Below, one piece after another: positions 7,755 through 48,816 of a DNA stretch of 64,000 bases (its first letter is position 1; each line of letters starts with the position of its first letter). Origin of the DNA: Pseudomonadota bacterium (GTDB lineage Bacteria > Pseudomonadota > Alphaproteobacteria > Micavibrionales > CSBR16-224); NCBI GenBank assembly GCA_013285465.1, contig CP053449.1, positions 1,445,540 through 1,509,539 on the forward strand, in the 5' to 3' direction. A model generated the notes under the pieces. The model saw nothing but the letters and a program-made list of their open reading frames with translations. It had not been told where the DNA came from and ran no database searches. The translations under genes and the position numbers were made by a program.

Positions 7755-8210
7755 ATGCATGACAAAAAGTCTCTGTCGCAAATTTTTGAGACCCATATTC
7801 AAGCGCAGGAAAGCAGCGCATCGCAGAAAGCCTTGAAAATGTTTTTTGCCGCCATGGATAATGTGCGCACGGTTCTGTCCGGGCAAGATATCCCCTTAAC
7901 GGTTGATTTGCATCCCGTTGGTACGGAAAAAAATAACGTGATGCATGATCTGGGCGGCGTTTACGGCAAACCGCTTTATCAGGGCACGGCCAAAATCGGT
8001 GAAACGCTGAGCTTTCCGGTCACATTGTTCGGCGGGTTTACAGGCGAATACGGGGTAAAACTCGGCACGGTCAGCGCGAAAAACTTTACCAATGACGATA
8101 CGATCGGCACTGTTCAGGAACATCTTGTACAGCATGCCGCACGCTATGTCGCTTTGCGGCAGGGTAATCAGACCCAAAAACGGCATCTTGACCGCCGCCA
8201 TGGCCGGTAA
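7755..8210 (+). CDS. hypothetical protein with basic C-terminus (distant paralog of 4808..5368)
   Basis: 151-aa ORF with ATG start. Its N- and C-terminal segments align without gaps to the 4808 product. Ends ...QKRHLDRRHGR. Confidence 0.6.
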   Translation: MHDKKSLSQIFETHIQAQESSASQKALKMFFAAMDNVRTVLSGQDIPLTVDLHPVGTEKNNVMHDLGGVYGKPLYQGTAKIGETLSFPVTLFGGFTGEYGVKLGTVSAKNFTNDDTIGTVQEHLVQHAARYVALRQGNQTQKRHLDRRHGR

Positions 8211-8215
8211 TTGAC

Positions 8216-8923
8216 TTAAGCCGCGTCTTCCAGGGATGTTTTATCGTAAGGAATGATTTTCCCGTCTTTCAGGGTCAGGATACGGTCGGTTTTCTGCGCC
8301 AGCTCCATATTATGGGTGACGATCAGCGCCGCCAGCTGCAATTCCGACACCATGCGCTTCAGCAAGGCAAAGACTTCTCCCGCCGTTTTCGGGTCCAGAT
8401 TCCCAGTCGGCTCATCCGCCAGCAGCAGCACCGGATTATTGGCCAGCGCCCGCGCAATCGCAACACGCTGCTGTTCCCCGCCCGACATTTCCGACGGATA
8501 ATGCCCGCCGCGTTCGGCGATTTTGACCATTTTCAAAAGATCATCGGCATTCTGCCGCGCATCCGCTTTCGGTACACCGGCAATCAGCTGCGGCAATATC
8601 AAATTTTCCTGCGCGGTGAAATCCGACAGCAGATAATGGAATTGATAAATAAAGCCGATTTTTTCACGGCGCAGGCGTGTGCGGGTTTCATCATCCGCAT
8701 GTTGCACAGCCATACCGTCCATATAAATCTCGCCGGATGTCGGACGGTCAAGAATGCCGGCAATCTGTAACAGGGTCGATTTCCCCGCACCGCTGGGTGC
8801 AACCAGCGCAACGCTTTCTCCCGCTTTAATCTCCAGATCGGCACCGGCCAGAATCTCCAGCGTACGACCGCCCTGCACAAAGCTTTTGGTAATATTTTTC
8901 AAAGACAGAATGGCTTTACTCAT
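8216..8923 (-). CDS. lolD: lipoprotein-releasing ABC transporter ATP-binding protein LolD
   Basis: ORF trimmed to ATG 8923 (MSKAILSLKNITKSF), overlapping the lolC stop by 8 nt. Walker A GAGKST, ABC signature SGGEQQRVAIARA, Walker B LLLADEPTG. Confidence 0.92.
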   Translation of the reverse strand: MSKAILSLKNITKSFVQGGRTLEILAGADLEIKAGESVALVAPSGAGKSTLLQIAGILDRPTSGEIYMDGMAVQHADDETRTRLRREKIGFIYQFHYLLSDFTAQENLILPQLIAGVPKADARQNADDLLKMVKIAERGGHYPSEMSGGEQQRVAIARALANNPVLLLADEPTGNLDPKTAGEVFALLKRMVSELQLAALIVTHNMELAQKTDRILTLKDGKIIPYDKTSLEDAA

Positions 8924-10178
8924 GGCGCAGCGCCTCCACAGGGTCAAGCCGTGCGGCTTTCCATGCCGGATAAATCGTCGCCGCCAGCGACAAAACCAGT
9001 GCCATCAGCACAATCGCGACAATTTCCCCCCGCTCTATTTTCGAGGGCAATTGCGACAGGAAATAGATTTCATCGGCAAACAGCTCGGTGCCCGTGAAAC
9101 CCTCCAGCCATTTGCGGATCGATTCAATATTTGCGGCAATCAAAATCCCCAGCGTTGCGCCCAGAACCGTTCCCAGCACGCCGACTGCCGCGCCGGTATA
9201 AAAAAAGACCCGGATAATCATGCCGCGCGTTGCACCCATTGTGCGCAAAATCGCAATATCACGCCCCTTTTCCTTTACCAGCATGATCAGACTGGAAATA
9301 ATATTAAAGGCCGCGACCAGAATAATCAGCGTCAAAATCAGGAACATCACATTGCGTTCGACCTTCAGCGCTGTATAGAAGCTGGCATTATTATCGCGCC
9401 AGTCGCTTATCCTTGCGTCCAGCGGTTGCGCAACACGTTCTGCCGCCGCACGGATCGTATCTATATCCGTTGCATCGGTTGTCATCACTTCCAGCCCGGA
9501 AACGCTGTCGCCGCGGCGGTAGAATTTCTGCGCGATTTCAAGCGGCATAAAGACAAAATTGGCGTTATATTCATACATGCCGACATCAAAAATCGTACCA
9601 ATCGTGAATTTCCGCGCCGTCGGAATGGTCCCGAACGGGCTGGCACGCCCTTGCGGTGCGACAAGACGGATATCACTACCAATGCCGAGTGCAAAACGGT
9701 CCGCCATAACTTTCCCGATGGCAATTTTATCCTCACCGAAAGGCAAGGTATCATCCTGTACCAGAATACCGTCCGACAGGATCGGCTTGCGGGCAAAATC
9801 AGCCGGCAGAATACCGCGCACAACCACACCGCTGGCCGCACTGTTGCCTTGACCGACACTCATCAATGCCTGCCCCTCAATCACCGGCATCACACTGGTA
9901 ATACCTTCAACACCCGTTTCCAGCGCTTTCTGCAAGGCATCATAATCCGATAACCCGCGATACTGCGCATCATGCACCATCATATGGCCGTTCAGCCCCA
10001 GAATACGGGTCACCAGATCCTCGCGAAAGCCGTTCATCACCGACATCACGACAATCAGCGCGGCAACGCCGATCATAATACCCAGCAACGAGAAAACCGC
10101 TGTCACCGAGATCATACGCTCGCGGCGGCGGGCGCTGAAATAGCGCATGGCGACCATTTTTTCAAAAGCCTGCGGCAT
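8916..10178 (-). CDS. lolC: lipoprotein-releasing system permease, LolC/LolE family
   Basis: FtsX/MacB-type permease upstream of lolD. The start is probably ATG 10178 (MPQAFEKMVAMRYFSARRRE). The track's longer ORF uses TTG at 10208. Confidence 0.88.
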   Translation of the reverse strand: MPQAFEKMVAMRYFSARRRERMISVTAVFSLLGIMIGVAALIVVMSVMNGFREDLVTRILGLNGHMMVHDAQYRGLSDYDALQKALETGVEGITSVMPVIEGQALMSVGQGNSAASGVVVRGILPADFARKPILSDGILVQDDTLPFGEDKIAIGKVMADRFALGIGSDIRLVAPQGRASPFGTIPTARKFTIGTIFDVGMYEYNANFVFMPLEIAQKFYRRGDSVSGLEVMTTDATDIDTIRAAAERVAQPLDARISDWRDNNASFYTALKVERNVMFLILTLIILVAAFNIISSLIMLVKEKGRDIAILRTMGATRGMIIRVFFYTGAAVGVLGTVLGATLGILIAANIESIRKWLEGFTGTELFADEIYFLSQLPSKIERGEIVAIVLMALVLSLAATIYPAWKAARLDPVEALRHE

Positions 10179-10264
10179 CGTGGAAAACTGCTCCAAAAAC
10201 GGGTTCAATTAAGTGCCCCACATTGGCGCAGGCATGGCTTTTTGTCAAGGAGATGCGGGGGAGA

Positions 10265-10714
10265 TTATCCGCGCCCGCGTTTCAGATATTGGCGCAAGGT
10301 TTGATGGCGGTTATCGGCGGTTTGCCGTGCTTCCTCCAGTTTGGGGACATCCGCGGCGCGCACCAGCTCGGCGGGATATTCACGCATAAACATACGAATC
10401 CAGTCGCCCTGTTCTTCAAAGCCCTTCTGAATTCCCGCCCCGTTCAGCGTTGTATGGTCAAACGCGATTTCGCCCTGCCACAGAACCTCTTTTCTGGACG
10501 CATCGTTGAAAACCGTCAGCATATCGCCCTTTTCCAGCGCAATCAGCCCGTCCATACTGCGCTGCCCGTCCGGCCGCTCATATGTTGTATCATAAACAGC
10601 CCAGATGGAATGTGTCATGCCCTGCTCGCAAAAAGCCTCCAGCAGCCCCTCCACAACGGGAACGCCGTATTTTTTCAACGATGTCGGTTTTTTTGATGCT
10701 GTCATAGTCTGCAT
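10265..10714 (-). CDS. hypothetical protein carrying the RHxxLRxYLxRG C-terminal tail (no ANK repeats)
   Basis: 149-aa ORF with ATG start and no recognisable domain. Ends ...ADNRHQTLRQYLKRGRG, the same tail seen on four ANK proteins. Confidence 0.65.
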   Translation of the reverse strand: MQTMTASKKPTSLKKYGVPVVEGLLEAFCEQGMTHSIWAVYDTTYERPDGQRSMDGLIALEKGDMLTVFNDASRKEVLWQGEIAFDHTTLNGAGIQKGFEEQGDWIRMFMREYPAELVRAADVPKLEEARQTADNRHQTLRQYLKRGRG

Positions 10715-10738
10715 CTTACCGCAAACATATATATTATG

Positions 10739-12226
10739 TCAATAAGCTTTACCGACGATAACTTTTTTGCCGTCATCTGCGAAGGGCAGACAGCGCGGCG
10801 TGACGGAAAATTCCTGCATCAGTTTTTCAAACGCCTCTTCCTGCAGGAAGGCGGCATCAAAGCGCACCTGACCGATGCTGTCTTTGGCGGCAAAGAACTG
10901 ATGCGCCTCGTCCAGCGTTTTCACGTCATGTACCATGCTTTCCGTGCGTTTCAGTGCCTGCTGATACATGCCGGTCTGCATCTCGTCCAGAATAGTTGTG
11001 ATTTTGTTGCAGAAGGCATCGACGCTTTCCGTGGTTTTGCTGTCACGTCCGATATCGCGGCGGGTATGGGTGATATTGCCCTCTTCCATTTCGCGGCGGC
11101 CGATTTCAACACGCACGGGCACACCCTGTTTGATAGAACCCCATAATTTGTCCGGTGTTTTTTTGTCGCTGGCATCCAGATCAACGCGAATGCTTTGATT
11201 TTTCAAACGGCGCGCCAATGTTTCCGCATAATCCAGAATTTTGGCGCGGTCGGCATCATCATGGATAATCGGAATAATAATGACATGATGCGGCGCGACT
11301 TTCGGCGGCATGCGCATACCGTCATCATCGCCATGGGTCATAATCAATCCGCCGATCATGCGTGAAGACATGCCCCATGAGGTCGTCCATGCAAATTCCT
11401 CCCCGCCTTCGGCTGATTGATAGCGGATATTGGCGGAGCGGGAGAATGTTTGCCCCAGATCATGCGAGGTACCGCTTTGCAGCGCCTTGCCGTCTTGCAG
11501 CACAGCCTCGATCGTATAGGTCGCCGATGCGCCGGGGAAGCGTTCCTCCGGCGTTTTCTCGCCTTCAAAGACGGGAATTGCCATGACATTACGGGAAAAT
11601 TCGGCATAGACTTCCAGCATACGGCGGGCATCGGCATTGGCTTCCTCAGCTGTCGCAAAGGCATTATGCCCTTCCTGCCACAGGAATTCCGCCGTGCGCA
11701 GGAACAGACGCGGACGCATTTCCCAGCGCATCACATTCGCCCATTGGTTCAGTTTCAGCGGCAGGTCGCGATAGGAATTGACCCATTTGGCAATGGTTTC
11801 ACCGATAATGGTTTCCGAGGTCGGGCGGATAATCATCGGCTCCGCCAGTTCGCCGGCGGGGACAAGCCCCTTACCATCGGGCGCGGCTTCCAGACGGTGA
11901 TGGGTCACGACCGCGCATTCCTTGGCAAAACCGTCAATATGCTCCGCCTCTTTCGCGATATAGCTCAGCGGAATCAGCAGCGGGAAATAGGCATTTTTTA
12001 CGCCTTCATTCTTGATGCGGTCATCCAGTTCGCGCTGGAACAGCTCCCACACCGCATAACCATAAGGTTTGATAATCATACAGCCGCGCACCGGCGCATT
12101 TTCAGCCATATCCGCCGCTTTGATGACATTCTGATACCATTCGGGGAAGTTTTCCTCCCGCGTCGGGGTGACGGCAGTTTTAACTTTCTTCTGGCTGCCT
12201 TGCTTTTGCGCCGTTTGTGCTGTCAT
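10739..12226 (-). CDS. proS: proline--tRNA ligase, archaeal/eukaryote-like type
   Basis: 495-aa ORF. N-terminal REENFPEWYQNVIKAADM...VRGCMIIKPYGYAVWE, class II motifs (IRPTSET, FLRTAEFLWQEGH, GTSHDLGQ) and a C-terminal Tyr (..VGKAY) resemble the eukaryotic/archaeal ProRS architecture. Confidence 0.93.
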   Translation of the reverse strand: MTAQTAQKQGSQKKVKTAVTPTREENFPEWYQNVIKAADMAENAPVRGCMIIKPYGYAVWELFQRELDDRIKNEGVKNAYFPLLIPLSYIAKEAEHIDGFAKECAVVTHHRLEAAPDGKGLVPAGELAEPMIIRPTSETIIGETIAKWVNSYRDLPLKLNQWANVMRWEMRPRLFLRTAEFLWQEGHNAFATAEEANADARRMLEVYAEFSRNVMAIPVFEGEKTPEERFPGASATYTIEAVLQDGKALQSGTSHDLGQTFSRSANIRYQSAEGGEEFAWTTSWGMSSRMIGGLIMTHGDDDGMRMPPKVAPHHVIIIPIIHDDADRAKILDYAETLARRLKNQSIRVDLDASDKKTPDKLWGSIKQGVPVRVEIGRREMEEGNITHTRRDIGRDSKTTESVDAFCNKITTILDEMQTGMYQQALKRTESMVHDVKTLDEAHQFFAAKDSIGQVRFDAAFLQEEAFEKLMQEFSVTPRCLPFADDGKKVIVGKAY

Positions 12227-13054: not shown

Positions 13055-13756
13055 ATGTCATCCAGTTTGGGCGAAAAACTCATAAATACTGTGGAGAACG
13101 GCGATTTAGACGGCGTGCGCGACCTTGTGTTGAACCATAACGCCCCCGTCAATTACGCCAATGACGGCTGGACACCGCTGATCAAAGCCGCCAGCCGCGG
13201 ATATATGGAGATGGTCCGCTTTCTTATCGAACATGATGCGGATCCCAATCTGCGATCCGGCGACCAGTGGACGCCCCTTTGGGGCGCAATTTCTTCGGAT
13301 CATGACAATCTGGAGGTCGTGGAATATCTGCTGGACAACGGCGCCAATCCGCTCATCACCACAAAAGGAAAAACACCGGAAGCCTATGCGGCGGAAAAGA
13401 ACAAACGCCTCGTCGTCATGGCTTTGAATGAAAGCCTGCGCTGGCAAAAGCTTGGGCCGCACCGTATCCAGAACCACAGTATCGAACCGCTGTTTGAAGT
13501 CACCCGCATTTTCAATTTTAAATCCATGAATGTGATGACGGTTATACAAGACCGTGACCATAAAACGATGAGCCATAGCGAAATGCATTTCTCCAACCCT
13601 GCCGTTGATCTTGAACTTCTACGGGAAGCCAAGGTAGAACTGCTGGAGCGTGGCGGTACACTTGATGACCGCGCCGTCAATGATGCGCTGATCAATTCAC
13701 GTCATGGCCGCCGTTTGCACAATATCTCCCGCCGCGAGGCCAAAAATGGCCGATAA
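13055..13756 (+). CDS. ankyrin-repeat protein with uncharacterised C-terminal module (pair 1, copy a)
   Basis: ORF 13001..13756 trimmed to ATG 13055 (AGAGG SD; MSSSLGEKL). ANK consensus present (DGWTPLIKAASRGYMEMVRFLIEHDADPN, DQWTPL...). C-terminal module ...VTRIFNFKSMNVMTVIQ.... Tail ..RHGRRLHNISRREAKNGR. Confidence 0.85.
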   Translation: MSSSLGEKLINTVENGDLDGVRDLVLNHNAPVNYANDGWTPLIKAASRGYMEMVRFLIEHDADPNLRSGDQWTPLWGAISSDHDNLEVVEYLLDNGANPLITTKGKTPEAYAAEKNKRLVVMALNESLRWQKLGPHRIQNHSIEPLFEVTRIFNFKSMNVMTVIQDRDHKTMSHSEMHFSNPAVDLELLREAKVELLERGGTLDDRAVNDALINSRHGRRLHNISRREAKNGR

Positions 13757-14429
13757 TGCTTATACCGAAGCCTGTAAAAACGGCAATCTGGAGCTTGTCC
13801 GCCGTTATATTCAGGAGGAAGGATGCAGCCCGGATGATTGCGATTCCAAATACTGGACACCGCTGGTCGCCGCTGCCTATCACGGTCATGATGATCTGGT
13901 GGTGTTTTTAATTCAACAAGGTGCCGATCTGAACACGCGTGATGAGAATGACGGCTGGACACCCTTGATTTCCGCCTCCTATAAAGGGCACAGTAAAATC
14001 GTCGAAACGCTTCTTGAACAGGGCGCGGATCAATATCTGCGTGATAAAAAAGGCCGCAATGCCGCCGATCTTGCTGAAAAAGAAGGCCACAGCCGTATCG
14101 GCTTGTTGTTGAAGGCCGCCCGCAAATGGCGGGTTTTGTCCGATGAAAAAATCCAGCATTTCAGTCTGGACGGTGATTTAAGCGTCACCCGCACCTTCAA
14201 TTTCCGCGCCATGAATGTGATGACGGTTGTCAGCAACACGGCAGACAAACTGCAAAGCCATCAGGAAAATGCTTTTTGCGATCCGTCCGTCGATTACGGT
14301 TTACTGCTGGAGGCCAAAGAGGAATTCCTGAAAACAGGCAAAAAAATCGATGAAAGCACTTTCAGTACGGCACTGAAATACCCGCTAAAAACCCGCCCTT
14401 CCCGTACAATTTCCCGCCGAAAAAACTAA
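13746..14429 (+). CDS. ankyrin-repeat protein with uncharacterised C-terminal module (pair 1, copy b)
   Basis: Start ATG 13746 (MADNAYTEACKNGNLELV) overlaps the upstream stop by 11 nt. ANK repeats present (YWTPLVAAAYHGHDDLVVFLIQQGADLN, DGWTPLISASYKGHSKIVETLLEQGAD). C-terminal ..VTRTFNFRAMNVMTVVS... Tail ..SRTISRRKN. Confidence 0.85.
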   Translation: MADNAYTEACKNGNLELVRRYIQEEGCSPDDCDSKYWTPLVAAAYHGHDDLVVFLIQQGADLNTRDENDGWTPLISASYKGHSKIVETLLEQGADQYLRDKKGRNAADLAEKEGHSRIGLLLKAARKWRVLSDEKIQHFSLDGDLSVTRTFNFRAMNVMTVVSNTADKLQSHQENAFCDPSVDYGLLLEAKEEFLKTGKKIDESTFSTALKYPLKTRPSRTISRRKN

Positions 14430-14437
14430 TTTCAGAC

Positions 14438-14467
14438 AAAAAAAGGGCCGCGGCAATGCCGCAGCCC
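14438..14467 (-). terminator. intrinsic terminator downstream of the serpin gene
   Basis: GC-rich 10-bp stem with one mismatch (GGGCCGCGGC/GCCGCAGCCC, 14445..14467). On the minus strand it is followed by a 7-T run (plus-strand A run 14438..14444). Confidence 0.7.
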
Positions 14468-14493: not shown

Positions 14494-15864
14494 TTAACGT
14501 TTCGGGCCTTTTGCAGCCGCTTTCGGCTTCATATCGTTATTCGGTTTGTTTACCGCACCGGCAAACAGAACCGTACCTGTTTTGATGTCTTGCAATGCGA
14601 AGGCAAAAGAACGGTCAAATTTGATGTCAATCCGTTTCGGCGGCATCTGGATGGATGTCGCGCGGATCACGCCGATTGTCGTCACGGCGGCGGCTTCACT
14701 GCCTTCCTCATCGGTTTTGAACACAACATCATGCGTGACTTTGTTCACGGCCAGCTGTTCATTCTTTTCTTCAATCATGGCTTTCAGATCCGCACGGTCT
14801 TCGTCAAACACCGTGTTGATGCCCATTTCTTTCAGAACGGGGATCAGATCATGTTTTTGCTTGATATCCATATGCGGCAGCTCGACCTGACCGATCACGC
14901 GTTCAAACGCATTCGGGTCGGTCCATGCCGGAACCTGGCCATCGGCCTGATCGGACAGCCAGTCGCGTGCGGCATTGCTGTCATCTTTCGGGCGCATCAG
15001 CACCAGACGCATGGTCGGCTCTTTGCCTTCCTTATAGTCCTGCTCACCATAAGTCATGGCAACGGCTTCGTAATCGCCGCCGTCAAGATAGGTGATGTCG
15101 CCTTTTTCGCTGAAGTTTTGCTGCATCATCGGCGTATCCGAGATTGCACCGTCATCCGTTGTAAAGCCGCGATCTTCGGTCAGTGCCTTGTCGAATTTCT
15201 TCGTCCAGTCACCTTTAAAGTAAAGGGCGGAGGCCAGGATGGCGTAATCATCTTTTGTCAGTTTCTCAACGATATTGTCGATCAAACCATTGGTGTTATC
15301 GGATGCCCATTTGTTGATTTTCGCCGGAACCGTGGGGTCGGAAAAACGCTCGCCGTTGATTTCCGCATCGAAGATGTTTTTCAGATCGGCAGCGTAATTG
15401 CCGTTCAATGTCAGAATGTCATCATTCGTCCAGATACCGTTTGCGGTTTTCAGCGTCACTTGCTCTTTATTCGCATCCAGAATTTCCGTGTTTAGCGCAG
15501 CCAGTTTGTCAATTTCAGCGTCCATCGCAGCGGCATCGGTGCCGAACAGCGTTTGCGCCAGCTCTTCCTTGGTCTGACCATTGGCAGCTTTGGACAGCAT
15601 TGATAAAGCCGTCGTTGCGTTATAGGACGACAAAACGAGATTGTCGGATTTGTCATCCTGATGTTTTGCGGCGGCTTTTGCAAAAACCAGCGCCAACTTG
15701 TTCAGCGTGTTGACTTCCGGCTTATATTGGCGGCCGGCCTCATGTTGCGGTTGTCCTTGTCTTGAATCGCGGGGCATTGCGTATCCTTCCTGAATATTCA
15801 AATGAATTGTCAAAATGCTTATAACGGCGCCAAGCGCCAGAATCATGCGTAATTTTCCGGTCAT
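14494..15864 (-). CDS. secreted serpin-family serine protease inhibitor
   Basis: Serpin hallmarks: NLVLSSYNATTALSMLSKAANGQTKEEL, the hinge/RCL EEGSEAAAVTTIGVIRATS, and C-terminal FDRSFAFALQDIKTGTVLFAGAVNKP. The N-terminus is signal-peptide-like (MTGKLRMILALGAVISILT). Start ATG 15864 is preferred; the track uses GTG 15876. Confidence 0.9.
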   Translation of the reverse strand: MTGKLRMILALGAVISILTIHLNIQEGYAMPRDSRQGQPQHEAGRQYKPEVNTLNKLALVFAKAAAKHQDDKSDNLVLSSYNATTALSMLSKAANGQTKEELAQTLFGTDAAAMDAEIDKLAALNTEILDANKEQVTLKTANGIWTNDDILTLNGNYAADLKNIFDAEINGERFSDPTVPAKINKWASDNTNGLIDNIVEKLTKDDYAILASALYFKGDWTKKFDKALTEDRGFTTDDGAISDTPMMQQNFSEKGDITYLDGGDYEAVAMTYGEQDYKEGKEPTMRLVLMRPKDDSNAARDWLSDQADGQVPAWTDPNAFERVIGQVELPHMDIKQKHDLIPVLKEMGINTVFDEDRADLKAMIEEKNEQLAVNKVTHDVVFKTDEEGSEAAAVTTIGVIRATSIQMPPKRIDIKFDRSFAFALQDIKTGTVLFAGAVNKPNNDMKPKAAAKGPKR

Positions 15865-16003
15865 GGCTTTATTCACCTTTCATGCCGAGCGGTAGCAATA
15901 ACATGTTTACGAAATACAAGTCAATACGCTCTTGCTGATTGAGGTAACTGTGCTATATTTCCTAGTGTTAGAACGCTTTCTAGATAGGTATGGACGGTAA
16001 AAA

Positions 16004-18889: not shown

Positions 18890-19663
18890 ATGACACCTAT
18901 AAACTTTTTCAAACTCCAAGCAAAAAATCTTTTCAAAGATTATAAAACCCAAACACCTTATATTGATGAGGTGAATGGCCGCTCCTACTACAAATACACC
19001 CCCCAATATTTCGATATAGAGCGCATTTCCTTAAAATATGATTGGGATGAAGAAAATTTCAGTCTAATGAAAGCACAGCATCTCTTTGCACTTATGCTCG
19101 GATTTGACAAATGGACACATTTAGTGAAAGCCTCAGATGTAGAATTAGAGCTCACGAAACTATTATGGGACAATCAACATAAAATTTCCTTAGAAGACTG
19201 GCAGATGTATATTGCCAACGTAGAATTCGATAACAGCATTACTCTCAGCACTACGGATGAAATAGAAATCTTGAAACAAGTCTTTATTAATGTGGATGGG
19301 CATCACAACCCTTTTGGAGACTATCGCCTGAAGAAAAACCGACACCGTGTAGCCGAGACACCACAGCAAACACCCACGATCAGCACAGCTCCGCAAATTA
19401 CCTCTCTTCCCTTAGACCAGGCAAATCGTGCAGAATTCATCGAAGCAGCCAACAGAGTTTTTGAAGCCGTCATATGGCGAATGGAACCGAACAACCCGGA
19501 ACAAACACGCAAACTTTGGAACGCAGAAAATTATATTGATAACCTTCTATTGACTGACGATATGCTGCCCATCAGCAAGGACTATGCGCTATCATTGATA
19601 GATGCTTTTTTGGTTCACCATGTCCTTGATCTCGCTGTGCAAGCCGACAAAATGGCGGCATAA
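18890..19663 (+). CDS. hypothetical protein (AT-rich orphan)
   Basis: 257-aa ORF with AAGGA SD 9 nt upstream of the ATG. Composition is more AT-rich than alaS. No domain I can name. Confidence 0.6.
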   Translation: MTPINFFKLQAKNLFKDYKTQTPYIDEVNGRSYYKYTPQYFDIERISLKYDWDEENFSLMKAQHLFALMLGFDKWTHLVKASDVELELTKLLWDNQHKISLEDWQMYIANVEFDNSITLSTTDEIEILKQVFINVDGHHNPFGDYRLKKNRHRVAETPQQTPTISTAPQITSLPLDQANRAEFIEAANRVFEAVIWRMEPNNPEQTRKLWNAENYIDNLLLTDDMLPISKDYALSLIDAFLVHHVLDLAVQADKMAA

Positions 19664-19775: not shown

Positions 19776-20000
19776 TCAGGCTTCGCTGACACCTGCGGCG
19801 TCTTCGTCCTCATCATCTTCTTCCAGTTCAAGCGTACCGCTGGGATCTTGCTCCAGCAGATCGGCGACTTGCTCATAAACATCAGCATTGTCGTTCATCT
19901 GCTCTTTCAGCGGCTCATTCTGTTCGCCGACATTGCGGAAAAAACCTGCGGCATCGCGCAGAAGCTTTACAGCAAGATCGGAATAGGTCGTTGTTGCCAT
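19776..20000 (-). CDS. small highly acidic hypothetical protein (74 aa)
   Basis: ATG-initiated ORF ending in LELEEDDEDEDAAGVSEA. It is followed by the bidirectional terminator. Confidence 0.5.
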   Translation of the reverse strand: MATTTYSDLAVKLLRDAAGFFRNVGEQNEPLKEQMNDNADVYEQVADLLEQDPSGTLELEEDDEDEDAAGVSEA

Positions 20001-20197: not shown

Positions 20198-20944
20198 ATG
20201 GATCAATGTAAAATGCCGACAAATGCCGGAGAAAATCCCGCCCAGTTCTTTTTGGATGCCGTAAAAAACGGCAGTAAAAGCGGCGTTGAGGCCGCATTGC
20301 AACTTGGCGTGCAGATTGATGCCCCGATCGACGGTGACCTGACGGCGCTGCATATTGCCGTACAGCAACGGGACTATGATATGGTTGTCGAATTGCTGGC
20401 GCAGGGCGCAAATCCCAATATTCCGGACAGTCTCGGCGATACGCCCCTGTTTCTGGCGGCAGGTTACGGCGAAGCCAAAATCCTGACAAAACTGATTGAA
20501 AAAAACGGTGATGCCGATGCATTGAACAGTAGCAAGGCGAATGCCCTGATGCGCGCCGCCTATCACGATCATGCCGAATGCTGCGAAATCCTGCTGAAAC
20601 ACATGAAAACACTGAGCATCGACCATCAGGACAATTCCTACAGCACCGCTGTCATGTGGGCGGTCATCAGCGGACGCACAAAAGCACTGGAAGTGCTGTT
20701 GCAGCACGATCCCGATCTGAGCTTGAAAGACGGGCAAAACCGTACGGCTTTCGGGGTTGCCTCATGGTTCGATATGCTGGATGCCAATAATATGATGATT
20801 GACCATCAGAAAAACAGCCTTGCCGTTGCTGCGAAAGCCGCTTTTTCCGCGCAGGAGGCCGCCGAAAAACAAGCCCGCAACGAAACCCAGACCAGCAACC
20901 GCGTTAACCGTCATGCCGCCTTGCGCAGCTATCTGCGGCGCTGA
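20198..20944 (+). CDS. ankyrin-repeat protein with the LRxYL C-terminal tail
   Basis: 248-aa ORF with 4-5 ANK repeats (LTALHIAVQQRDYDMVVELLAQGANPN, GDTPLFLAAGYGEAKILTKLIEKNGD...). Ends ..NRVNRHAALRSYLRR. Confidence 0.85.
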   Translation: MDQCKMPTNAGENPAQFFLDAVKNGSKSGVEAALQLGVQIDAPIDGDLTALHIAVQQRDYDMVVELLAQGANPNIPDSLGDTPLFLAAGYGEAKILTKLIEKNGDADALNSSKANALMRAAYHDHAECCEILLKHMKTLSIDHQDNSYSTAVMWAVISGRTKALEVLLQHDPDLSLKDGQNRTAFGVASWFDMLDANNMMIDHQKNSLAVAAKAAFSAQEAAEKQARNETQTSNRVNRHAALRSYLRR

Positions 20945-21035: not shown

Positions 21036-21695
21036 ATGGGTGATATCAGTTTTGACTTTTCCAAGGAAGACCGTTTCCGCAAAATAACGTACGGAGCCGG
21101 TCTTGTCGGTGCCGTCGCAACAGGTGTCACAGCAGCTGTGCTTGGCGTTGCCGCAACACCGCTGGCCGCAGCAGGCATGATTGTCGCAGGCGGCGTTGCC
21201 ACGGCCGTTGTCCTGCCTGCAGCCGCAACCGCCGCTTTCGGCCTGCTGTACACCGCCGCAAAAACCGTTGCTGCCGTCGGCAGTTGCCTGACACCTTCCG
21301 GCTTTAAGAAACAGCAATTCTATGCCAAAAATCGCAATCAATCCGTGATCGGACGCATTATCGGCAAAGGCCTGAAAGCCGGGAAAGAAGCCGGCGGTAT
21401 GTCTTTGCTGCTGACAGCCGCTCTTGCGGGAAGTTCGGCCAAAGCCCTCTTCTACACGCCTTTCGTAGAACTGAAACAGGCCATCGGCAATCTCACCTCA
21501 GGTAAAGCCGAAGAGAAACCTGCCGCAACAACGCCTGCGACCCCGAAAGCTGCGGCACCGAAAACAAAAACGCAGAAAAATCTGGGTAAAACGGCAACGG
21601 AAAGCTTTAAGCCCGCGCCGAAAACGGCCAATGACGATCAGGCGCCGAAAACTGCTGCCAAACAGACGAAAAAGCGCGGCGGCCCGAAGAAATAA
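21036..21695 (+). CDS. membrane protein with long bilobed hydrophobic region and Lys/Pro/Ala-rich C-terminus
   Basis: 219-aa ORF with AAGGAG SD. Residues ~20-85 are an almost uninterrupted Ala/Gly/Val/Thr hydrophobic stretch, and there is a second hydrophobic segment (MSLLLTAALAGSS). The C-terminal half is a low-complexity basic tail ending KKRGGPKK. Confidence 0.65.
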   Translation: MGDISFDFSKEDRFRKITYGAGLVGAVATGVTAAVLGVAATPLAAAGMIVAGGVATAVVLPAAATAAFGLLYTAAKTVAAVGSCLTPSGFKKQQFYAKNRNQSVIGRIIGKGLKAGKEAGGMSLLLTAALAGSSAKALFYTPFVELKQAIGNLTSGKAEEKPAATTPATPKAAAPKTKTQKNLGKTATESFKPAPKTANDDQAPKTAAKQTKKRGGPKK

Positions 21696-21767: not shown

Positions 21768-22400
21768 ATGTCCGAATTGCAAAAAACCGTGAATGAGCAT
21801 TTACGCGAAGCCGCGCAAATCGGCAATATCGCACTTATGCAGGACGCTCTGGATAACGGTGCGGAGATTCACCACGATCATGACAGCGCCCTGCAATGGG
21901 TCTGCTATAACGGTCATCGTGAGGCGGCGGAATTTCTGCTGGATAACGGCGCCGATCCGCACGCCGATGGCGGCAAGCCACTCAAACATGCCGCAGAACA
22001 GGGACGCTATAGCATTGTTCTGTTGCTGCTGGAGCGCGGAGCGGCATTCTCCACACTCAGCACGGCCATGCAGGTCAAATATGCCGGAGCTTTAGAAGAA
22101 AGCAAACTGGCGCAGGTTGAAGAACGGTTGAAAAATCCCTATCAGCTTTTCAACGACCATACCGTACTGAAATTTGAAGGCCGCATCCGCGAGATCGGCG
22201 ATCTGCATAAAATTTTTGATTTCTCCGCCCGTACCGTCACACAGATGGTCGGTAAAACCCCGGCAACACCGCTGCTGTTTTCGCAGTTCCGTGACAACCG
22301 TGACGAAATTATGGACGCCTATGATTGGCTGAAATCCCAAGATAAAAACCCTCCCGCCCCCTTCACCGCTGTACAGCGCAAAGTCAGACACAACCGTTAA
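21768..22400 (+). CDS. ankyrin-repeat protein with uncharacterised C-terminal module (pair 2, copy a)
   Basis: 210-aa ORF with ANK repeats (DSALQWVCYNGHREAAEFLLDNGADPH, KPLKHAAEQGRYSIVLLLLERGA). C-terminal NPYQLFNDHTVLKFEG...LHKIFDFSARTVTQMV...AYDWLKSQ. Tail ..QRKVRHNR. Confidence 0.85.
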   Translation: MSELQKTVNEHLREAAQIGNIALMQDALDNGAEIHHDHDSALQWVCYNGHREAAEFLLDNGADPHADGGKPLKHAAEQGRYSIVLLLLERGAAFSTLSTAMQVKYAGALEESKLAQVEERLKNPYQLFNDHTVLKFEGRIREIGDLHKIFDFSARTVTQMVGKTPATPLLFSQFRDNRDEIMDAYDWLKSQDKNPPAPFTAVQRKVRHNR

Positions 22401-22512
22401 TCCGGTTTTTTATTGCATTCCCTTATAATTTTTTTCATATACTGCCCTCAACAGGACAGTTTAAAAATCTTTAAAAAACAGGACGCTTTCAAACACGAAA
22501 GCGGCAGAAACA

Positions 22513-23136
22513 ATGGATCAACAATCCTTTTGGACTCTGAATCTGGTCAGATATGCCAAAATCGGCGATGTCGAAGGCATTCTCACGGCGCTGGAAAAAG
22601 ACGCGGATATTCATTATCAGGGTGATTCCGCCCTGCAATGGGCCTGTAATAACGGCAATTTTGACGCTGCCAAATGCCTGCTGGAAAACGGTGCCGACCC
22701 GCTTGGTCCCGTGCCGATCAGATGCGCCGCACAAAACGGGCACACCGATATTCTACGGCTGTTGCTGGAATATGGCGCAGACTACACCACCCTGCCCGAA
22801 GAGGAAAAGCTGCGGCATATGGAATTATTGGTCGCCTTTCGAACGGAAAGCAAAGAAAGACGCCTCGCCGACCCCTACCAGATTCTGAATGACAATGTCG
22901 TTGTCAAATTTGAAGGACAGGCGGAAAAACTGGGAGAGCTGTGCAAGATTTTTGACTTTGCCGCCCGCACGGTGACCCAGACTGTCGATAAACACCCTGC
23001 GCATCCTTTGATGTTTGATGATTTCCGCAATAATCGCGGTGAAATTATGGCGGCCTATGACTGGCTGAAAAAGCAGGGGAAGGATGTACCGCATCCCTTT
23101 ATCACCGGCAACACACGCAATATCCGCCGCCGCTGA
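22513..23136 (+). CDS. ankyrin-repeat protein with uncharacterised C-terminal module (pair 2, copy b)
   Basis: 207-aa ORF, roughly half identical by eye to 21768..22400 (DSALQWACNNGNFDAAKCLLENGADP; DPYQILNDNVVVKFEG...LCKIFDFAARTVTQTV...AYDWLKKQ). Tail ..NTRNIRRR. Confidence 0.85.
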   Translation: MDQQSFWTLNLVRYAKIGDVEGILTALEKDADIHYQGDSALQWACNNGNFDAAKCLLENGADPLGPVPIRCAAQNGHTDILRLLLEYGADYTTLPEEEKLRHMELLVAFRTESKERRLADPYQILNDNVVVKFEGQAEKLGELCKIFDFAARTVTQTVDKHPAHPLMFDDFRNNRGEIMAAYDWLKKQGKDVPHPFITGNTRNIRRR

Positions 23137-23630: not shown

Positions 23631-23707
23631 CGGGGCGTGGCGCAGTCTGGTAGCGCGCTGCCTTCGGGAGGCAGAGGCCGGAGGTTCGAATCCTCTCGCC
23701 CCGACCA
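23631..23707 (+). tRNA. tRNA-Pro (anticodon CGG)
   Basis: 77-nt cloverleaf read by hand. Acceptor CGGGGCG/CGCCCCG, D stem GCGC/GCGC, anticodon stem CTGCC/GGCAG with loop TTCGGGA, T arm GGAGG-TTCGAAT-CCTCT, discriminator A, encoded CCA. Confidence 0.9.
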
Positions 23708-37672: not shown

Positions 37673-37748
37673 TGGCAGGAGCGAAGGGACTCGAACCCGC
37701 AACCCCCGGTTTTGGAGACCGGTGCTCTACCAATTGAGCTACGCTCCT
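37673..37748 (-). tRNA. tRNA-Trp (anticodon CCA)
   Basis: 76-nt cloverleaf on the minus strand. Acceptor AGGAGCG/CGCTCCT, D stem GCTC/GAGC, anticodon stem CCGGT/ACCGG with loop CTCCAAA, T loop TTCGAGT (one C-U mismatch in the T stem), encoded CCA. Conserved position upstream of secE-nusG. Confidence 0.88.
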
Positions 37749-44306: not shown

Positions 44307-45026
44307 TTATTTGTGCGGCCCGCGGCCTAAATAATTGCGTAAACGCTGCTGTTTCCGGTTGTTTTCACGTTGCTGTTCGACACGGATATGCGTAATTTGA
44401 TAACTTTCCAGCCACAAATACAGCTGTGTTTCAACGCGTTTGTTTTTTTCTTTTTGCGCAAGTTCCAGCGCCTTTTCAATATGCGGCACCATTTCTTTAT
44501 GCAGATTTCTGTCATCAACTTCTTTTAACAGAACGGTTAAAACATCACGCTTGCCCATTCCGGCGGCGCATTCAATCGCCGTTTTTCCTTCCGCCCCCAT
44601 AGAGGTCAAAGTAATATCCGCCCCCGCATCCAGCAGCAGACGGCAATTTTCAACCTTCCCATACATTGCAGCATGCATCAGCGGCGTATATCCCGTCGCA
44701 TTCTGATGATTGGGGTCGGCTTTGGCCTCCAGCAGGCTTCGGATAATGCCCGGAAAGGCATTCGCCGCACCGAAGATCAGAGCGGTATTACCGAATTTAT
44801 CGGTCAGATCAATCGTTGCGTTATTAGTGACAAAAATTGACACACCGGTATCAAAATCCTGCCCGGCCATAATCATCAGACCGGTCTTGCCTTTATGCGT
44901 GCCTTCACAGCATTTGGCATCGGGGTCCGCACCGCCTTCCAGCGCCGCATAGAGAGCGGAACTGTCGCTGATAATCGCAGCGTTTATCAGTTCCTCATCC
45001 CATGCGTTTTTATAAAATGCGTCCAT
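44307..45026 (-). CDS. ankyrin-repeat protein with LRxYL C-terminal tail, embedded in the miaB-phoH-ybeY operon
   Basis: 239-aa ORF with an AGAGGA SD in the 14-nt gap after the upstream phoH-like stop. ANK repeats present (GNTALIFGAANAFPGIIRSLLEAKADPN, GYTPLMHAAMYGKVENCRLLLDAGAD). Ends ..NRKQQRLRNYLGRGPHK. Confidence 0.85.
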   Translation of the reverse strand: MDAFYKNAWDEELINAAIISDSSALYAALEGGADPDAKCCEGTHKGKTGLMIMAGQDFDTGVSIFVTNNATIDLTDKFGNTALIFGAANAFPGIIRSLLEAKADPNHQNATGYTPLMHAAMYGKVENCRLLLDAGADITLTSMGAEGKTAIECAAGMGKRDVLTVLLKEVDDRNLHKEMVPHIEKALELAQKEKNKRVETQLYLWLESYQITHIRVEQQRENNRKQQRLRNYLGRGPHK

Positions 45027-47734: not shown

Positions 47735-48283
47735 ATGTCAAGCACTCCCCCGACAAGCACCCCATTGGGACAAATGCTGATTGCAGCCGTTGAAGACGGC
47801 GGGAGATTGTGGGAGATCAAAAACCTGATTGATGACGGTGCGCCGCTGAACGAAACAGACACCAAGGGTGATACGGCACTCATCAAAGCCGCTGCCAAAA
47901 ATGATTTTGAGCTGGTCGAGATTTTGTTGAATGCCGGATGCAGTCCGGACACGCCCGACCGCGACGGTAATACCCCGCTGATCCGTACCATTGAGATTAT
48001 CAAAGATGAAAGCAGCGCGCTGAATATTATCTGCGCCTTGATTGACCGCAATGCCGATGTGCTGGCAGTGAATGATCAGGGACATGATGTTATGTATTAC
48101 GCGGATAAATGGAAGGACTTTCATATCGGCATTCATTCTTTTCTGCGCAGCTATTCCAGTAGTATCGCCGCCGACCGCGACACAGCCGATACCGCGTCCG
48201 CCGCCCCCAAGGAACAAAAGCCCGCTTTTGGTGCGCGTCACACGAATTTAAGACAATATATCAAAAGAGGAATGAAAAAATGA
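47735..48283 (+). CDS. ankyrin-repeat protein with LRxYI C-terminal tail
   Basis: 182-aa ORF with ANK repeats (GDTALIKAAAKNDFELVEILLNAGCSPD, GNTPLIRTI...). Ends ..FGARHTNLRQYIKRGMKK. Confidence 0.85.
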   Translation: MSSTPPTSTPLGQMLIAAVEDGGRLWEIKNLIDDGAPLNETDTKGDTALIKAAAKNDFELVEILLNAGCSPDTPDRDGNTPLIRTIEIIKDESSALNIICALIDRNADVLAVNDQGHDVMYYADKWKDFHIGIHSFLRSYSSSIAADRDTADTASAAPKEQKPAFGARHTNLRQYIKRGMKK

Positions 48284-48816
48284 GCACACGCGATCTTGAT
48301 AATGAGTTGCTGGGCGCCATCAAAGATGCCGATTTTGCCAAAATGCAGCAATTACTGGAATGGGGTGCAAATCCCGATGCTGCTGATATGCTGGGTGACA
48401 CCGCGCTGATCTGGGCTGTGCGTGCCCCGATGTTTGCCGATGAGTATGATATGGATGAATTAACCGCTCGCCGTAGTTTCGCTGTCGAAGCTGTCAGACT
48501 GCTGCTGGAAAAAGGCGCAGATATCGACAAACCCAATAACCTGGGGCGCAGCGCCGCTTTTCAGGCCATCATGGACAAAAACATGGCACTGCTGACGGTT
48601 TTTGTCCAGCATGATGCCTCAATGCTGCTGAAAGATACGGCCGGGAATTCCATGGCCCGTTATGCAGAGCTGAGCAATGATGATGCCGTGCTGGAATGCG
48701 TTGAAAAAACCGCAAAGGCACAAATACAGGCTGCAGCATTACGCGCGGAAAAAGTCGAAGCCGTAAAAACGCGCCAGCAAAGCCTGCGCAGCTTTGTCCG
48801 TACACGGAAGATGTAA
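48280..48816 (+). CDS. ankyrin-repeat protein with LRxFV C-terminal tail
   Basis: 178-aa ORF with an ATGA overlap to the upstream ANK gene and an AGAGGA SD. ANK repeats present (GDTALIWAV..., VRLLLEKGADIDKPNNLGRSAAFQAI). Ends ..VKTRQQSLRSFVRTRKM. Confidence 0.85.
   Translation: MSTRDLDNELLGAIKDADFAKMQQLLEWGANPDAADMLGDTALIWAVRAPMFADEYDMDELTARRSFAVEAVRLLLEKGADIDKPNNLGRSAAFQAIMDKNMALLTVFVQHDASMLLKDTAGNSMARYAELSNDDAVLECVEKTAKAQIQAAALRAEKVEAVKTRQQSLRSFVRTRKM

What the first reader, a model, noticed from the sequence alone, without database searches (positions are those of the whole stretch)
13055..14429. Tandem, overlapping ANK paralogs share an uncharacterised ~90-aa C-terminal module that recurs in a second tandem pair
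The two genes overlap by 11 nt (ATGGCCGATAA) and are clear but diverged paralogs. After 2-3 ANK repeats both carry the same non-ANK module. Copy a reads RWQKLGPHRIQNHSIEPLFEVTRIFNFKSMNVMTVIQD...HFSNPAVDLELLREAKVELLERGG. Copy b reads KWRVLSDEKIQHFSLDGDLSVTRTFNFRAMNVMTVVSN...AFCDPSVDYGLLLEAKEEFLKTGK. The second pair (21768..23136) has the same skeleton at the same position: PYQLFNDHTVLKFEG..LHKIFDFSARTVTQMV...FSQF...EIMDAYDWLKSQ. The shared pattern is an aromatic-x-x-[LI] start, then about 20 aa later [IT]-F-[ND]-F-x-[AS]-x-x-V-x-[TQ]-x-V, then F ... A-[KY]-x-x-[LF]. I cannot assign it to any named domain. The architecture of ANK, this module and an Arg-rich tail is present four times in 10 kb.
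Basis: seen in the sequence. Interest (0 to 1): 0.65.

Follow-up and report, generated by a model that had tools for sequence, protein, structure and literature searches.

The report
New C-terminal domain on ankyrin proteins
Two overlapping genes, and a second pair 8 kb away, encode ankyrin-repeat proteins that end in a small folded domain found in no domain library, followed by a short basic tail; the family is real, rare and conserved in uncultured Micavibrio-like and other bacteria, but its function is only inferred.

Summary
Genes a (13055..13756) and b (13746..14429) overlap by ATGGCCGATAA. Each has four ANK repeats, a non-ANK module of about 87 aa and a basic tail. Their modules are 39% identical (E 2e-24).

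Genes c and d carry a shorter, diverged copy. This is invisible to BLAST. It is supported by profile-profile comparison (90%, E 1.5e-6) and by a family HMM built without c and d (d E 7e-5, c E 0.017).

A scan of 1.84 billion representatives found 17 relatives, all ANK plus this module. They usually sit in tightly packed arrays of 2 to 5 genes.

AlphaFold gives a confident five-strand meander plus two helices. Pfam, NCBIfam, PADLOC, PHROGs and Foldseek (PDB, BFVD) find nothing. A marginal hit to dynein intermediate chain DNAI1 fails on non-mammalian orthologues.

Orthologues are under purifying selection (dN/dS 0.04 to 0.27). The basic tail is not specific to these four genes. A related tail motif ends four other ANK proteins and one non-ANK protein in the window.

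Best reading: non-enzymatic, probably exported ANK adaptor proteins of a Micavibrio-like alphaproteobacterium. The module would be a binding or pairing surface and the tail a shared C-terminal tag. Function is inferred, not shown. Moderate interest.

The parts
13055..13756 (+). gene a: 233-aa ANK + module + tail protein (= NCBI QKK05480.1). ANK part is nt 13055..13438.
   Evidence: ORF. Start at 13055 is supported by an AGAGG 7 nt upstream and by gene calls in L003. Pfam finds ANK only. Exact match in NCBI.
13439..13699 (+). module of a (aa 129-215): short strand carrying the conserved W, four longer antiparallel strands, then two helices
   Evidence: AlphaFold2 with a 20-sequence alignment: pLDDT 85.5 overall, 92-96 in the core, pTM 0.70. 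Coordinates.
13700..13753 (+). basic tail of a (RHGRRLHNISRREAKNGR, pI 12)
   Evidence: Low-confidence, unstructured in the model.
13746..13756 (+). 11-nt overlap ATGGCCGATAA (start of b inside the end of a)
   Evidence: The same 11-nt overlap follows from the ORF coordinates in L002 and L003. Overlaps of 4 nt occur in L004 and L010, and of 4-8 nt in L016.
13746..14429 (+). gene b: 227-aa ANK + module + tail protein. ANK nt 13746..14123, module 14124..14384, tail 14385..14426.
   Evidence: AlphaFold2 of the full length: pLDDT 89.9, four ANK helix pairs, then strands 128-176 and helices 184-211.
14445..14467 (.). G+C-rich hairpin between b and the convergent serpin gene. The T-run is on the minus strand.
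21768..22400 (+). gene c: 210 aa, ANK + short module (nt 22137..22343) + basic tail (= QKK05488.1)
22513..23136 (+). gene d: 207 aa, ANK + short module (nt 22873..23079) + basic tail (= QKK05489.1)
20198..20944 (+). gene e: ANK-only protein that ends in the tail motif NRHAALRSYLRR
44307..45026 (-). gene f: ANK-only protein that ends in QQRLRNYLGRGPHK
47735..48816 (+). genes g (47735..48283) and h (48280..48816): third tandem ANK pair with a 4-nt overlap. No module. Tails ...NLRQYIKRGMKK and ...SLRSFVRTRKM.
10265..10714 (-). 149-aa non-ANK protein with the same tail (NRHQTLRQYLKRGRG). Conserved in L002.

Best explanation
**Shown.**
- a and b are the two members of an old, translationally coupled gene pair.
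- They belong to a small, previously undescribed protein family.
- Each protein has a four-repeat ANK solenoid that runs straight into a compact domain of about 85 aa, then ends in an unstructured basic tail.
- The domain has a short strand carrying an almost invariant Trp, a four-strand antiparallel meander with an invariant F-N-F at the end of strand 3, and two helices.
- c and d are a diverged, shortened branch of the same family.
- The conserved residues (W, FNF, F, A) are hydrophobic core positions. No polar catalytic set is conserved. The module is therefore a structural or binding domain, not an enzyme.

**Inferred.**
- These are eukaryote-like ANK adaptor proteins that the bacterium exports into or onto another cell, either host or prey. 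The bacterium is an uncultured Micavibrio-like alphaproteobacterium with a 2.67-Mb genome.
- The ANK groove binds a target protein.
- The module adds a second binding or pairing surface. It possibly pairs the co-translated paralogs through an exposed sheet edge.
- The basic tail is a portable C-terminal tag. It ends in R-x-[ILV]-S-[KR]-R in the module proteins and in L-R-x-[YF]-[LIV]-[KR]-R in the other proteins that carry it. The export machinery would recognise it. A type IV secretion system is the most likely candidate, by analogy with the positively charged C-terminal signals of VirB/VirD4 substrates.
For: **Family is real and rare.** An exhaustive HMMER scan of 1.84 billion representatives gave 18 hits. 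Seventeen are ANK plus this module at the C-terminus.

**Homology of the two pairs.**

**Fold.** Two separate predictions give the same topology with high confidence: the a module alone and full-length b.

**No known domain or fold.**

**Purifying selection.** The module is at least as constrained as the ANK part. Against L001, dN/dS is 0.04-0.07 for the module and 0.15-0.16 for ANK.

**Arrays with tight coupling.**
- Conserved a+b pair in L001, L002 and L003.
- Pairs in L004, L007, L010 and L013.
- Four in a row in L008.
- Five in a row with 4-8 nt overlaps in L016, next to the same DUF1467 gene as in the window.
- The upstream genes of four loci form one clade in 91 of 100 bootstraps, so the a/b split predates these lineages.

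**Pointers to export.**
- None of a-d starts with a hydrophobic signal-peptide-like stretch. The proteins begin directly with the first ANK helix.
- All eight ANK proteins of the window have tails of net charge +4 to +7 in the last 20 aa.
- A tail motif is found in 6 of 812 ORFs against 0.18 expected. One of the six is a non-ANK protein.
- A secreted-type serpin is a conserved neighbour.
- One family locus lies 7 kb from a MavL-like gene, a Legionella effector family.
- A close relative is labelled Micavibrio sp..
- Seven marine Micavibrionales genomes are reported to carry Dot/Icm-like type IV systems (PMC9418006).
Against: - No secretion-system gene was seen in the 64-kb window or in any of the 16 loci.
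- Cultured Micavibrio aeruginosavorus has no type III or IV system, and its genome paper does not mention ANK proteins (PMC3189940).
- Dot/Icm signals, the type reported for marine Micavibrionales, are usually acidic or hydrophobic rather than Arg-rich (own knowledge).
- The module is never found without ANK. That argues against a generic export signal and leaves its role open.
- The tail motif was defined after seeing the sequences, so its enrichment is overstated.
- The L007 and L008 members have K/P-rich rather than Arg-rich tails.
- Heterodimerisation of a and b is pure inference.
- The lifestyle of the organism is unknown.
Confidence: 0.45

Rival explanations
1. The proteins act inside the producing bacterium. 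They could be regulators or self-protection (immunity-like) partners of the predator's own toxic enzymes, as the ANK protein Bd3460 is for Bdellovibrio endopeptidases. On this reading the basic tails bind nucleic acid or membrane.
For: - The Micavibrio-like identity makes a bacterial predator or epibiont lifestyle possible.
- ANK-mediated self-protection is documented in another bacterial predator (PMC4686830, found).
- A protease inhibitor (serpin) is the conserved neighbour.
- No secretion genes were seen nearby.
- The genes sit among housekeeping genes: proS, alaS, DUF1467, glmM, ftsZ, pgk.
Against: - a-d have no signal peptide, unlike periplasmic Bd3460 (sequence reading).
- No toxin or peptidase gene is paired with them in any locus.
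- The arrays are ANK next to ANK, not toxin next to immunity.
- The same C-terminal tag on a non-ANK protein points to a shared sorting step.
Confidence: 0.25
2. The module and tail together are nothing but a two-part export signal, like the BID domain plus basic tail of Bartonella Bep proteins or the XVIPCD of Xanthomonas T4SS toxins. The module docks on the coupling protein and has no role in the target cell.
For: - The layout is the same: a conserved C-terminal domain of about 90 aa followed by a short positively charged tail.
- The module is under stronger constraint than the ANK part.
- The paralogs form arrays, as bep genes do (own knowledge).
Against: - The module occurs only behind ANK repeats in all 17 representatives and all loci. 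BID and XVIPCD sit behind many different effector domains.
- Four other ANK proteins and one non-ANK protein of the same genome carry the tail without the module. The tail therefore does not need the module.
- No Pfam match of any kind.
- The predicted fold is beta-rich, whereas BID is helical (own knowledge).
Confidence: 0.12
3. The module copies or mimics the light-chain-binding stretch of the eukaryotic axonemal dynein intermediate chain DNAI1 (residues ~170-245, FNFSERASQT...WEIYDAY). It would engage LC8/Roadblock-type light chains of a ciliated or flagellated host.
For: - A profile of the family hits human and mouse DNAI1 as the top PDB sequences. E is 4.8e-4 and 2.7e-3 with A4, and 6e-3 with pair-1 types only.
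- The core scores 20 bits against at most 9 bits in 1000 shuffles.
- hhalign against a 5-sequence DNAI1 profile gives prob 44-49%, P about 2e-4.
- Pair 2 and the L008 members (FDFSARTVTQ, FNFTSRTCTQ ... EIMDAYDWL) look most like FNFSERASQT ... EIYDAY.
[quoted passage not shown] The review describes that region in general terms as carrying Tctex, three LC8 dimers and Roadblock (PMC10886578). The residue-level placement is inference.
Against: - A tail-free, broader profile weakens the hit to E 0.018-0.05.
- The same conserved region of Chlamydomonas IC78 and of two other non-mammalian DNAI1-type chains in the PDB scores only 0.6-2.4 bits, which is shuffle level.
- The c+d profile alone finds no DNAI1.
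- The residues conserved across DNAI1 (SER..QT, RDRE, EPPP, WEIYD.Y) do not fall on the residues conserved in the module (W, FNF, F, A).
- The module is predicted as a compact fold with a hydrophobic core. By own knowledge, not checked in the structures here, this part of DNAI1 is thought to run as an extended chain along the light chains.
- The exhaustive protein scan with the pair-1 profile returned no dynein chain.
Confidence: 0.06
4. Pair 2 is not homologous to pair 1. The shared skeleton would be a chance resemblance of two unrelated beta-rich C-terminal extensions.
For: - BLASTP finds nothing between the pairs.
- Two-sequence profiles give E 0.14.
- c reaches only E 0.017 with the family HMM.
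- Pair 2 lacks about 18 residues, including helix 2.
Against: - hhalign gives 90% probability, E 1.5e-6, over 71 columns in the expected register.
- d reaches E 7e-5, and c and d are the only extra hits in the window.
- In the reverse direction, the c+d profile scores 13 of 26 other modules at E<=0.017.
- The position is the same: directly after the last ANK helix and before a basic tail.
- L008-type members are intermediate in sequence.
Confidence: 0.1

Closest known systems
ANK-repeat effector families with a C-terminal add-on domain in tandem paralog arrays (ANK + PRANC/F-box-like proteins of Orientia, Wolbachia, Rickettsia and poxviruses)
   Same: N-terminal ANK repeats followed by one small C-terminal domain. 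Many paralogs per genome, often adjacent. No signal peptide. Eukaryote-like repeat in a bacterium.
   Different: PRANC is a helical F-box-like domain that Pfam recognises. No Pfam family matches here at E<=10. The predicted fold is a beta-meander plus two helices. The producers are Micavibrio-like and other uncultured Proteobacteria, not Rickettsiales.
Two-part type IV secretion signals: BID domain plus positively charged tail (Bartonella Bep proteins, relaxases); Arg-rich tails of Agrobacterium VirB/VirD4 substrates
   Same: A conserved C-terminal domain of about 90-100 aa followed by a short, unstructured, strongly basic tail at the very end of the protein (pI 12). Alphaproteobacterial setting.
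   Different: No sequence match. BID is helical (own knowledge). The module is tied to ANK only. The tail occurs without the module on other proteins. No T4SS was seen in the sequence available.
Bd3460, the ANK self-protection protein of Bdellovibrio bacteriovorus (PMC4686830)
   Same: A small ANK protein in a bacterial-predator lineage. Non-enzymatic binder.
   Different: They also carry the extra module and tail.
Legionella/Coxiella Dot/Icm Ank effectors (NCBIfam T4SS_AnkH, AnkG, AnkY and others)
   Same: ANK repeats. Weak hits in the ANK part.
   Different: Scores are 16-40 bits against cut-offs of 450-1400, and none covers the module.
N-terminal extension of axonemal dynein intermediate chain DNAI1/IC78
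   Same: A short FNF-S-x-R motif, a later F-S, and an amphipathic helix with A-[YK]-x-x-L in the same order. Marginal profile hits.
   Different: Non-mammalian orthologues do not score. Conserved positions do not coincide. Compact fold versus extended chain.

Membership tests
Ankyrin repeat proteins (Pfam Ank_2 PF12796, Ank PF00023) | Two or more 33-residue helix-turn-helix repeats scoring above the Pfam cut-off | tested here: met
   Ank_2 gives 81, 75, 50 and 48 bits for a, b, c and d against a cut-off of 27.3. The model of b has four helix pairs. DARPins are the top structural matches over ~120 residues.
ANK-PRANC / F-box-like C-terminal domain proteins | Match to the PRANC (or F-box) profile after the ANK repeats | tested here: not met
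   No Pfam family at E<=10 is shared by the 20 modules. None appears after residue ~120 in a-d.
ANK-PRANC / F-box-like C-terminal domain proteins | All-helical C-terminal domain | tested here: not met
   The module is predicted as five strands plus two helices.
BID-domain T4SS substrates | BID domain detectable by profile | tested here: not met
   No Pfam hit of any kind in the module. No PDB sequence or fold match.
BID-domain T4SS substrates | Positively charged extreme C-terminus | tested here: met
   Net charge is +4 to +7 in the last 20 aa of a-d. Tail pI is 12.
BID-domain T4SS substrates | VirB/VirD4-type T4SS in the same genome; translocation shown | not testable with these tools
   Only 64 kb of the 2.67-Mb genome is available. 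No T4SS gene is in it.
Dot/Icm Ank effectors (NCBIfam equivalogs) | Score above the curated cut-off | tested here: not met
   Best is 40 bits against a cut-off of 600, in the ANK region only.
Bd3460-type ANK immunity proteins | N-terminal signal peptide and a neighbouring peptidoglycan endopeptidase gene | tested here: not met
   a-d start directly with the first ANK helix. Neighbours are DUF1467, serpin, alaS and other ANK genes.
Dynein intermediate chain DNAI1 N-terminal region | Significant profile match that holds across DNAI1 orthologues | tested here: not met
   Human 20-23 bits and mouse ~20 bits, but Chlamydomonas and two other non-mammalian orthologues 0.6-2.4 bits. The core-only profile gives E 0.018.
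Dynein intermediate chain DNAI1 N-terminal region | Binding of LC8/Tctex/Roadblock light chains | not testable with these tools
   Needs a binding experiment or a complex prediction.
Anti-phage defence proteins (PADLOC) | Match of the module to a defence-system model | tested here: not met
   Only ANK-region hits: PDC-M72A, Ankyrin, MzaA.

The most novel reading that the evidence does not exclude
The module is a bacterial copy or mimic of the light-chain-binding stretch of the eukaryotic axonemal dynein intermediate chain DNAI1. On this reading these planktonic Micavibrio-like bacteria inject ANK proteins that latch onto dynein light chains of a flagellated or ciliated host. A less exotic version is that module plus tail is a new class of two-part export signal.
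Probability: 0.06. Interest if true: 0.85.

Novelty: new variant of a known kind. Interest (0 to 1): 0.4.

Why it matters
Bacterial ANK proteins are a classic signature of cells that manipulate other cells. What follows the repeats usually decides what they do.

This locus offers three things:
- A compact, confidently predicted domain that no library knows. It is confined to a handful of uncultured lineages: Micavibrio-like alphaproteobacteria from the ocean and soda lakes, and a contig with a MavL-like, Legionella-type effector gene.
- An arrangement in translationally coupled arrays of 2 to 5 genes.
- A short C-terminal tag shared with other small proteins of the same genome.

If the tag is an export signal, it gives a simple sequence handle to list the exported proteins of a poorly known group of marine bacteria. 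It would also help settle whether marine Micavibrionales live on bacteria or on eukaryotes.

If not, the result is one more domain of unknown function, cleanly delimited and ready for a Pfam entry.

Tried and rejected
1. **Word-indexed protein search.** Queries with b's module, c's module and the 19-sequence alignment all returned nothing. The exhaustive scan later showed that near-identical proteins exist, so these negatives reflect the index, not absence.
2. **Two-sequence profile comparison of the pairs.** Not significant. It was overturned after relatives were added.
3. **Fold libraries.**
   - Best PDB match: E 0.027, TM 0.33, to p32.
   - Best BFVD match: E 0.007, TM 0.37.
   - Full-length b matched only DARPins.
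4. **DNAI1 lead.** Followed through seven calls (45-49, 52, 53, 70, 71, 76) and judged probably chance or convergent, for the reasons given under rivals.
5. **Metal site at the conserved S-H...H of pair-1 types.** Rejected. b and the wider family lack the second His.
6. **Positive selection between paralogs.** Not supported. a vs b gives dN/dS 0.39 at saturated dS, and orthologues give 0.04-0.27.
7. **Conserved functional neighbours.** None found. The flanks differ between lineages: proS/serpin/alaS, glmM, ftsZ, the homogentisate pathway, dapF-ftsY...pgk, RNase J/nuo.
8. **Metagenome scan.** A narrower one added only two loci.
9. **Promoter scan.** No sigma-70-like site upstream of a. This is uninformative for an alphaproteobacterium.
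Full report
**What is at the coordinates**

The region holds two same-strand ORFs. Gene a is best started at ATG 13055, where AGAGG lies 7 nt upstream and the gene calls in a related scaffold agree. Gene b starts at ATG 13746, with GAGG 6 nt upstream. Pfam sees only ankyrin repeats, confined to the first ~115 residues of each protein. A second pair, c (21768..22400) and d (22513..23136), lies 8 kb downstream. Its genes are separated by 112 nt.

**Is the shared module real?**

- Within the pairs there is no doubt. The post-ANK regions of a and b are 39% identical over 107 residues (E 1.7e-24). Those of c and d are 59% identical (E 5.9e-38).
- Between the pairs BLASTP finds nothing, and two-sequence profiles give only E 0.14.
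- The question was settled by bringing in relatives. A 19-sequence profile of pair-1-type modules, containing neither c nor d, aligns to the c+d profile with 90% probability and E 1.5e-6 over 71 columns.
- An HMM built without c and d, run on all 812 six-frame ORFs of the window, picks out d (E 7e-5) and c (E 0.017) and nothing else.
- The c/d module is a shortened version of 69 aa. It has a deletion before the last strand and lacks the second helix.
- I put homology of the two pairs at about 0.9.

**How wide is the family?**

The word-indexed protein search returned nothing. An exhaustive HMMER scan of 1.84 billion cluster representatives returned 18 proteins. Seventeen of them are ANK repeats followed by this module at the C-terminus. 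Scans of genome and metagenome collections, and look-ups of encoding contigs, gave 16 loci. They fall into about nine lineages with G+C from 36 to 54%.

Three lineages keep the window's synteny (proS, DUF1467, a, b, serpin, alaS):
- a 483-kb TARA Oceans scaffold, 97-100% identical;
- MAG M3014;
- a soda-lake MAG.

The window's own proteins are in GenBank as 'ankyrin repeat domain-containing protein [Pseudomonadota bacterium]' on a 2.67-Mb contig. The soda-lake relative is labelled Micavibrio sp.. The producer is therefore most likely a Micavibrio-like alphaproteobacterium. This rests on a depositor's label and on synteny, not on a phylogeny made here.

**Arrays**

The genes are rarely alone.

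| Locus | Arrangement |
|---|---|
| Window | two pairs (a+b, c+d) |
| L004 | pair, 4-nt overlap |
| L010 | pair, 4-nt overlap |
| L013 | pair, 1-nt overlap |
| L007 | pair |
| L008 | four in a row |
| L016 | five in a row, 4-8 nt overlaps, next to the same DUF1467 gene as in the window |

In a neighbour-joining tree the upstream genes of four loci form one clade in 91 of 100 bootstraps. The a/b split is therefore older than these lineages, and the order has been kept. The small overlaps and the Shine-Dalgarno-like sequence inside the upstream gene suggest translational coupling and co-production. That inference is mine.

**Selection**

Orthologue comparisons give dN/dS of 0.04 to 0.27. Against MAG M3014 the module (0.04-0.07) is more constrained than the ANK part (0.15-0.16). 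There is no sign of positive selection. The paralog comparisons are saturated at synonymous sites.

**Structure and known domains**

- AlphaFold2 on the module of a with a 20-sequence alignment gives pLDDT 85.5 (92-96 in the core) and pTM 0.70. The elements are a short strand with the near-invariant Trp, four longer antiparallel strands, a 13-residue helix and a second helix. The tail is of low confidence.
- A separate run on full-length b gives pLDDT 89.9, four ANK helix pairs and the same module topology. The last ANK helix runs into the first strand without a linker.
- Invariant or nearly invariant positions in the family are W, F-N-F, F and A. These are core-type residues with no conserved polar cluster. 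I read the module as a scaffold or binding domain, not an enzyme.
- No library recognises it: Pfam on all members at E<=10, NCBIfam, PADLOC, PHROGs, Foldseek against PDB (best E 0.027, TM 0.33), Foldseek against BFVD, and full-length Foldseek, which returns DARPins only.

**The dynein lead**

A profile search of PDB sequences put human and mouse DNAI1 (residues ~171-269) on top, at E 4.8e-4 and 2.7e-3. The aligned stretch, FNFSERASQT...FSAT...WEIYDAY, resembles pair 2 in particular.

Points in its favour:
- The score is not compositional: 20 bits against at most 9 in 1000 shuffles.
- hhalign against a small DNAI1 profile gives P about 2e-4.

Points against it:
- A broader, tail-free profile drops to E 0.018.
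- The c+d profile alone finds nothing.
- The same region of Chlamydomonas IC78 and of two other non-mammalian orthologues is highly conserved within DNAI1. It scores only 0.6-2.4 bits.
- The positions conserved in DNAI1 are polar linear-motif residues. They do not coincide with the hydrophobic core positions conserved in the module.
[quoted passage not shown] That this particular stretch runs as an extended chain along the light chains is my own knowledge, not something checked here.

I treat the resemblance as probably chance or convergence (about 0.06 for a real relationship). I record it as the most novel reading not excluded.

**The tail**

The last 14-18 residues of a-d have pI 12. The tail is not a private feature of the module proteins.
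- All eight ANK proteins in the window (a-e, f, g, h; Pfam) have net charge +4 to +7 in their last 20 residues.
- Most housekeeping proteins do not, but several non-ANK proteins do: the serpin, a methyltransferase, a GCS2-family ligase and three small hypothetical proteins.
- e, f, g, h and a 149-aa non-ANK protein (10265..10714, conserved in L002) end in R-[HQ]-x-x-L-R-x-[YF]-[LIV]-[KRG]-[RT].
- A loose regular expression for this motif hits 6 of 812 ORFs, all real genes, against 0.18 expected from shuffles. The pattern was written after seeing the data.
- Most family members from other lineages also end in R-x-[ILV]-x-[KR]-R.

A portable, unstructured, basic C-terminal tag on otherwise different proteins is what a C-terminal sorting signal looks like. 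Positively charged tails are the known signal of VirB/VirD4 type IV substrates.

**Most likely mechanism**

- Shown: a conserved, constrained, non-enzymatic three-part protein made from coupled genes.
- Inferred: the proteins are exported. ANK binds a target in the recipient cell. The module gives a second contact or pairs the co-made paralogs. The tail is the export tag.
- Support for export is indirect:
  - no signal peptide;
  - eukaryote-like repeats at high density (8 ANK genes in 64 kb);
  - a conserved secreted-type serpin next door;
  - a MavL-like gene near one family array;
  - a report that seven marine Micavibrionales genomes carry Dot/Icm-like systems (PMC9418006).
- Against:
  - no secretion gene was seen in any sequence at hand;
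  - cultured M. aeruginosavorus lacks type III and IV systems (PMC3189940);
  - Dot/Icm signals are not usually Arg-rich (own knowledge);
  - the module never leaves ANK.
- I give the whole package 0.45.
- The main rival, at 0.25, is an intracellular role. That could include self-protection of a predator, as for Bd3460 of Bdellovibrio (PMC4686830).

**Novelty and verdict**

ANK proteins with add-on C-terminal domains in paralog arrays are a known kind. This add-on domain and this tail motif are not described in any library searched. I file the finding as a new variant of a known kind.

- Interest is moderate (0.4). It is a clean new domain family with an intriguing shared tag in a poorly known bacterial group, but it has no demonstrated function. 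Thousands of comparable domains of unknown function exist.

Noticed in passing
window 58182..60347 (+): Full-length homologue of the abortive-infection protein PifA (PADLOC E 1.4e-197, profile positions 5-716 of 720). It sits in the only low-G+C stretch of the window (41% against ~52%), so it is probably a horizontally acquired anti-phage gene.
   Followed up: partly
window 18890..19663 (+): 257-aa ORF with no Pfam, NCBIfam or PADLOC match, lying between alaS and the acidic 74-aa gene. It is absent at the same place in the near-identical TARA scaffold L003 and in L002. It looks like a strain-specific insertion.
   Followed up: partly
window 47735..48816 (+) and 44307..45026 (-): Three more ANK-only genes. 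g and h form a third tandem pair with a 4-nt ATGA overlap. This brings the window to eight ANK genes in 64 kb, interspersed with housekeeping genes such as phoH, miaB and accC.
   Followed up: partly
window 10265..10714 (-); L002 976..1413 (-): 149-aa protein with no recognisable domain that ends in the same tail as the ANK-only proteins (NRHQTLRQYLKRGRG; in L002 NRHGALRKYLKRGRG). This shows the tail is portable between different protein bodies.
   Followed up: partly
window 14494..15876 (-): Serpin (Pfam E 5e-77) with an N-terminal hydrophobic leader. It is convergent with b and conserved at this position in L001, L002 and L003. It is an unusual, eukaryote-like protease inhibitor in an alphaproteobacterium.
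   Followed up: no
window 19776..20000 (-): 74-aa, extremely acidic protein (the last 20 residues have net charge -10). It is conserved in L003 and lies between alaS and ANK gene e. Small acidic proteins are typical partners or chaperones of basic cargo; this was not tested.
   Followed up: no
window 21036..21695 (+): 219-aa protein between e and c, with a long Ala/Gly/Val-rich hydrophobic N-terminal half and a Lys/Pro/Ala-rich basic C-terminal half (...KQTKKRGGPKK). No family match. Conserved in L003.
   Followed up: no
L008 1..850 and 8001..11514: A contig with four consecutive ANK+module genes also carries a MavL-like gene (a Legionella effector family), plus phenylalanine hydroxylase and homogentisate-pathway genes. 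The family therefore probably extends beyond Alphaproteobacteria to a Legionella-like organism.
   Followed up: partly
window 23631..23704 (+) and 37676..37748 (-): Two tRNA genes are the only Rfam matches at gathering threshold in the window.
   Followed up: no
tools: The word-indexed protein search missed proteins that are identical or nearly identical to the query and are present in the same collection (against 19, 84). Its negatives should not be read as absence.
   Followed up: yes
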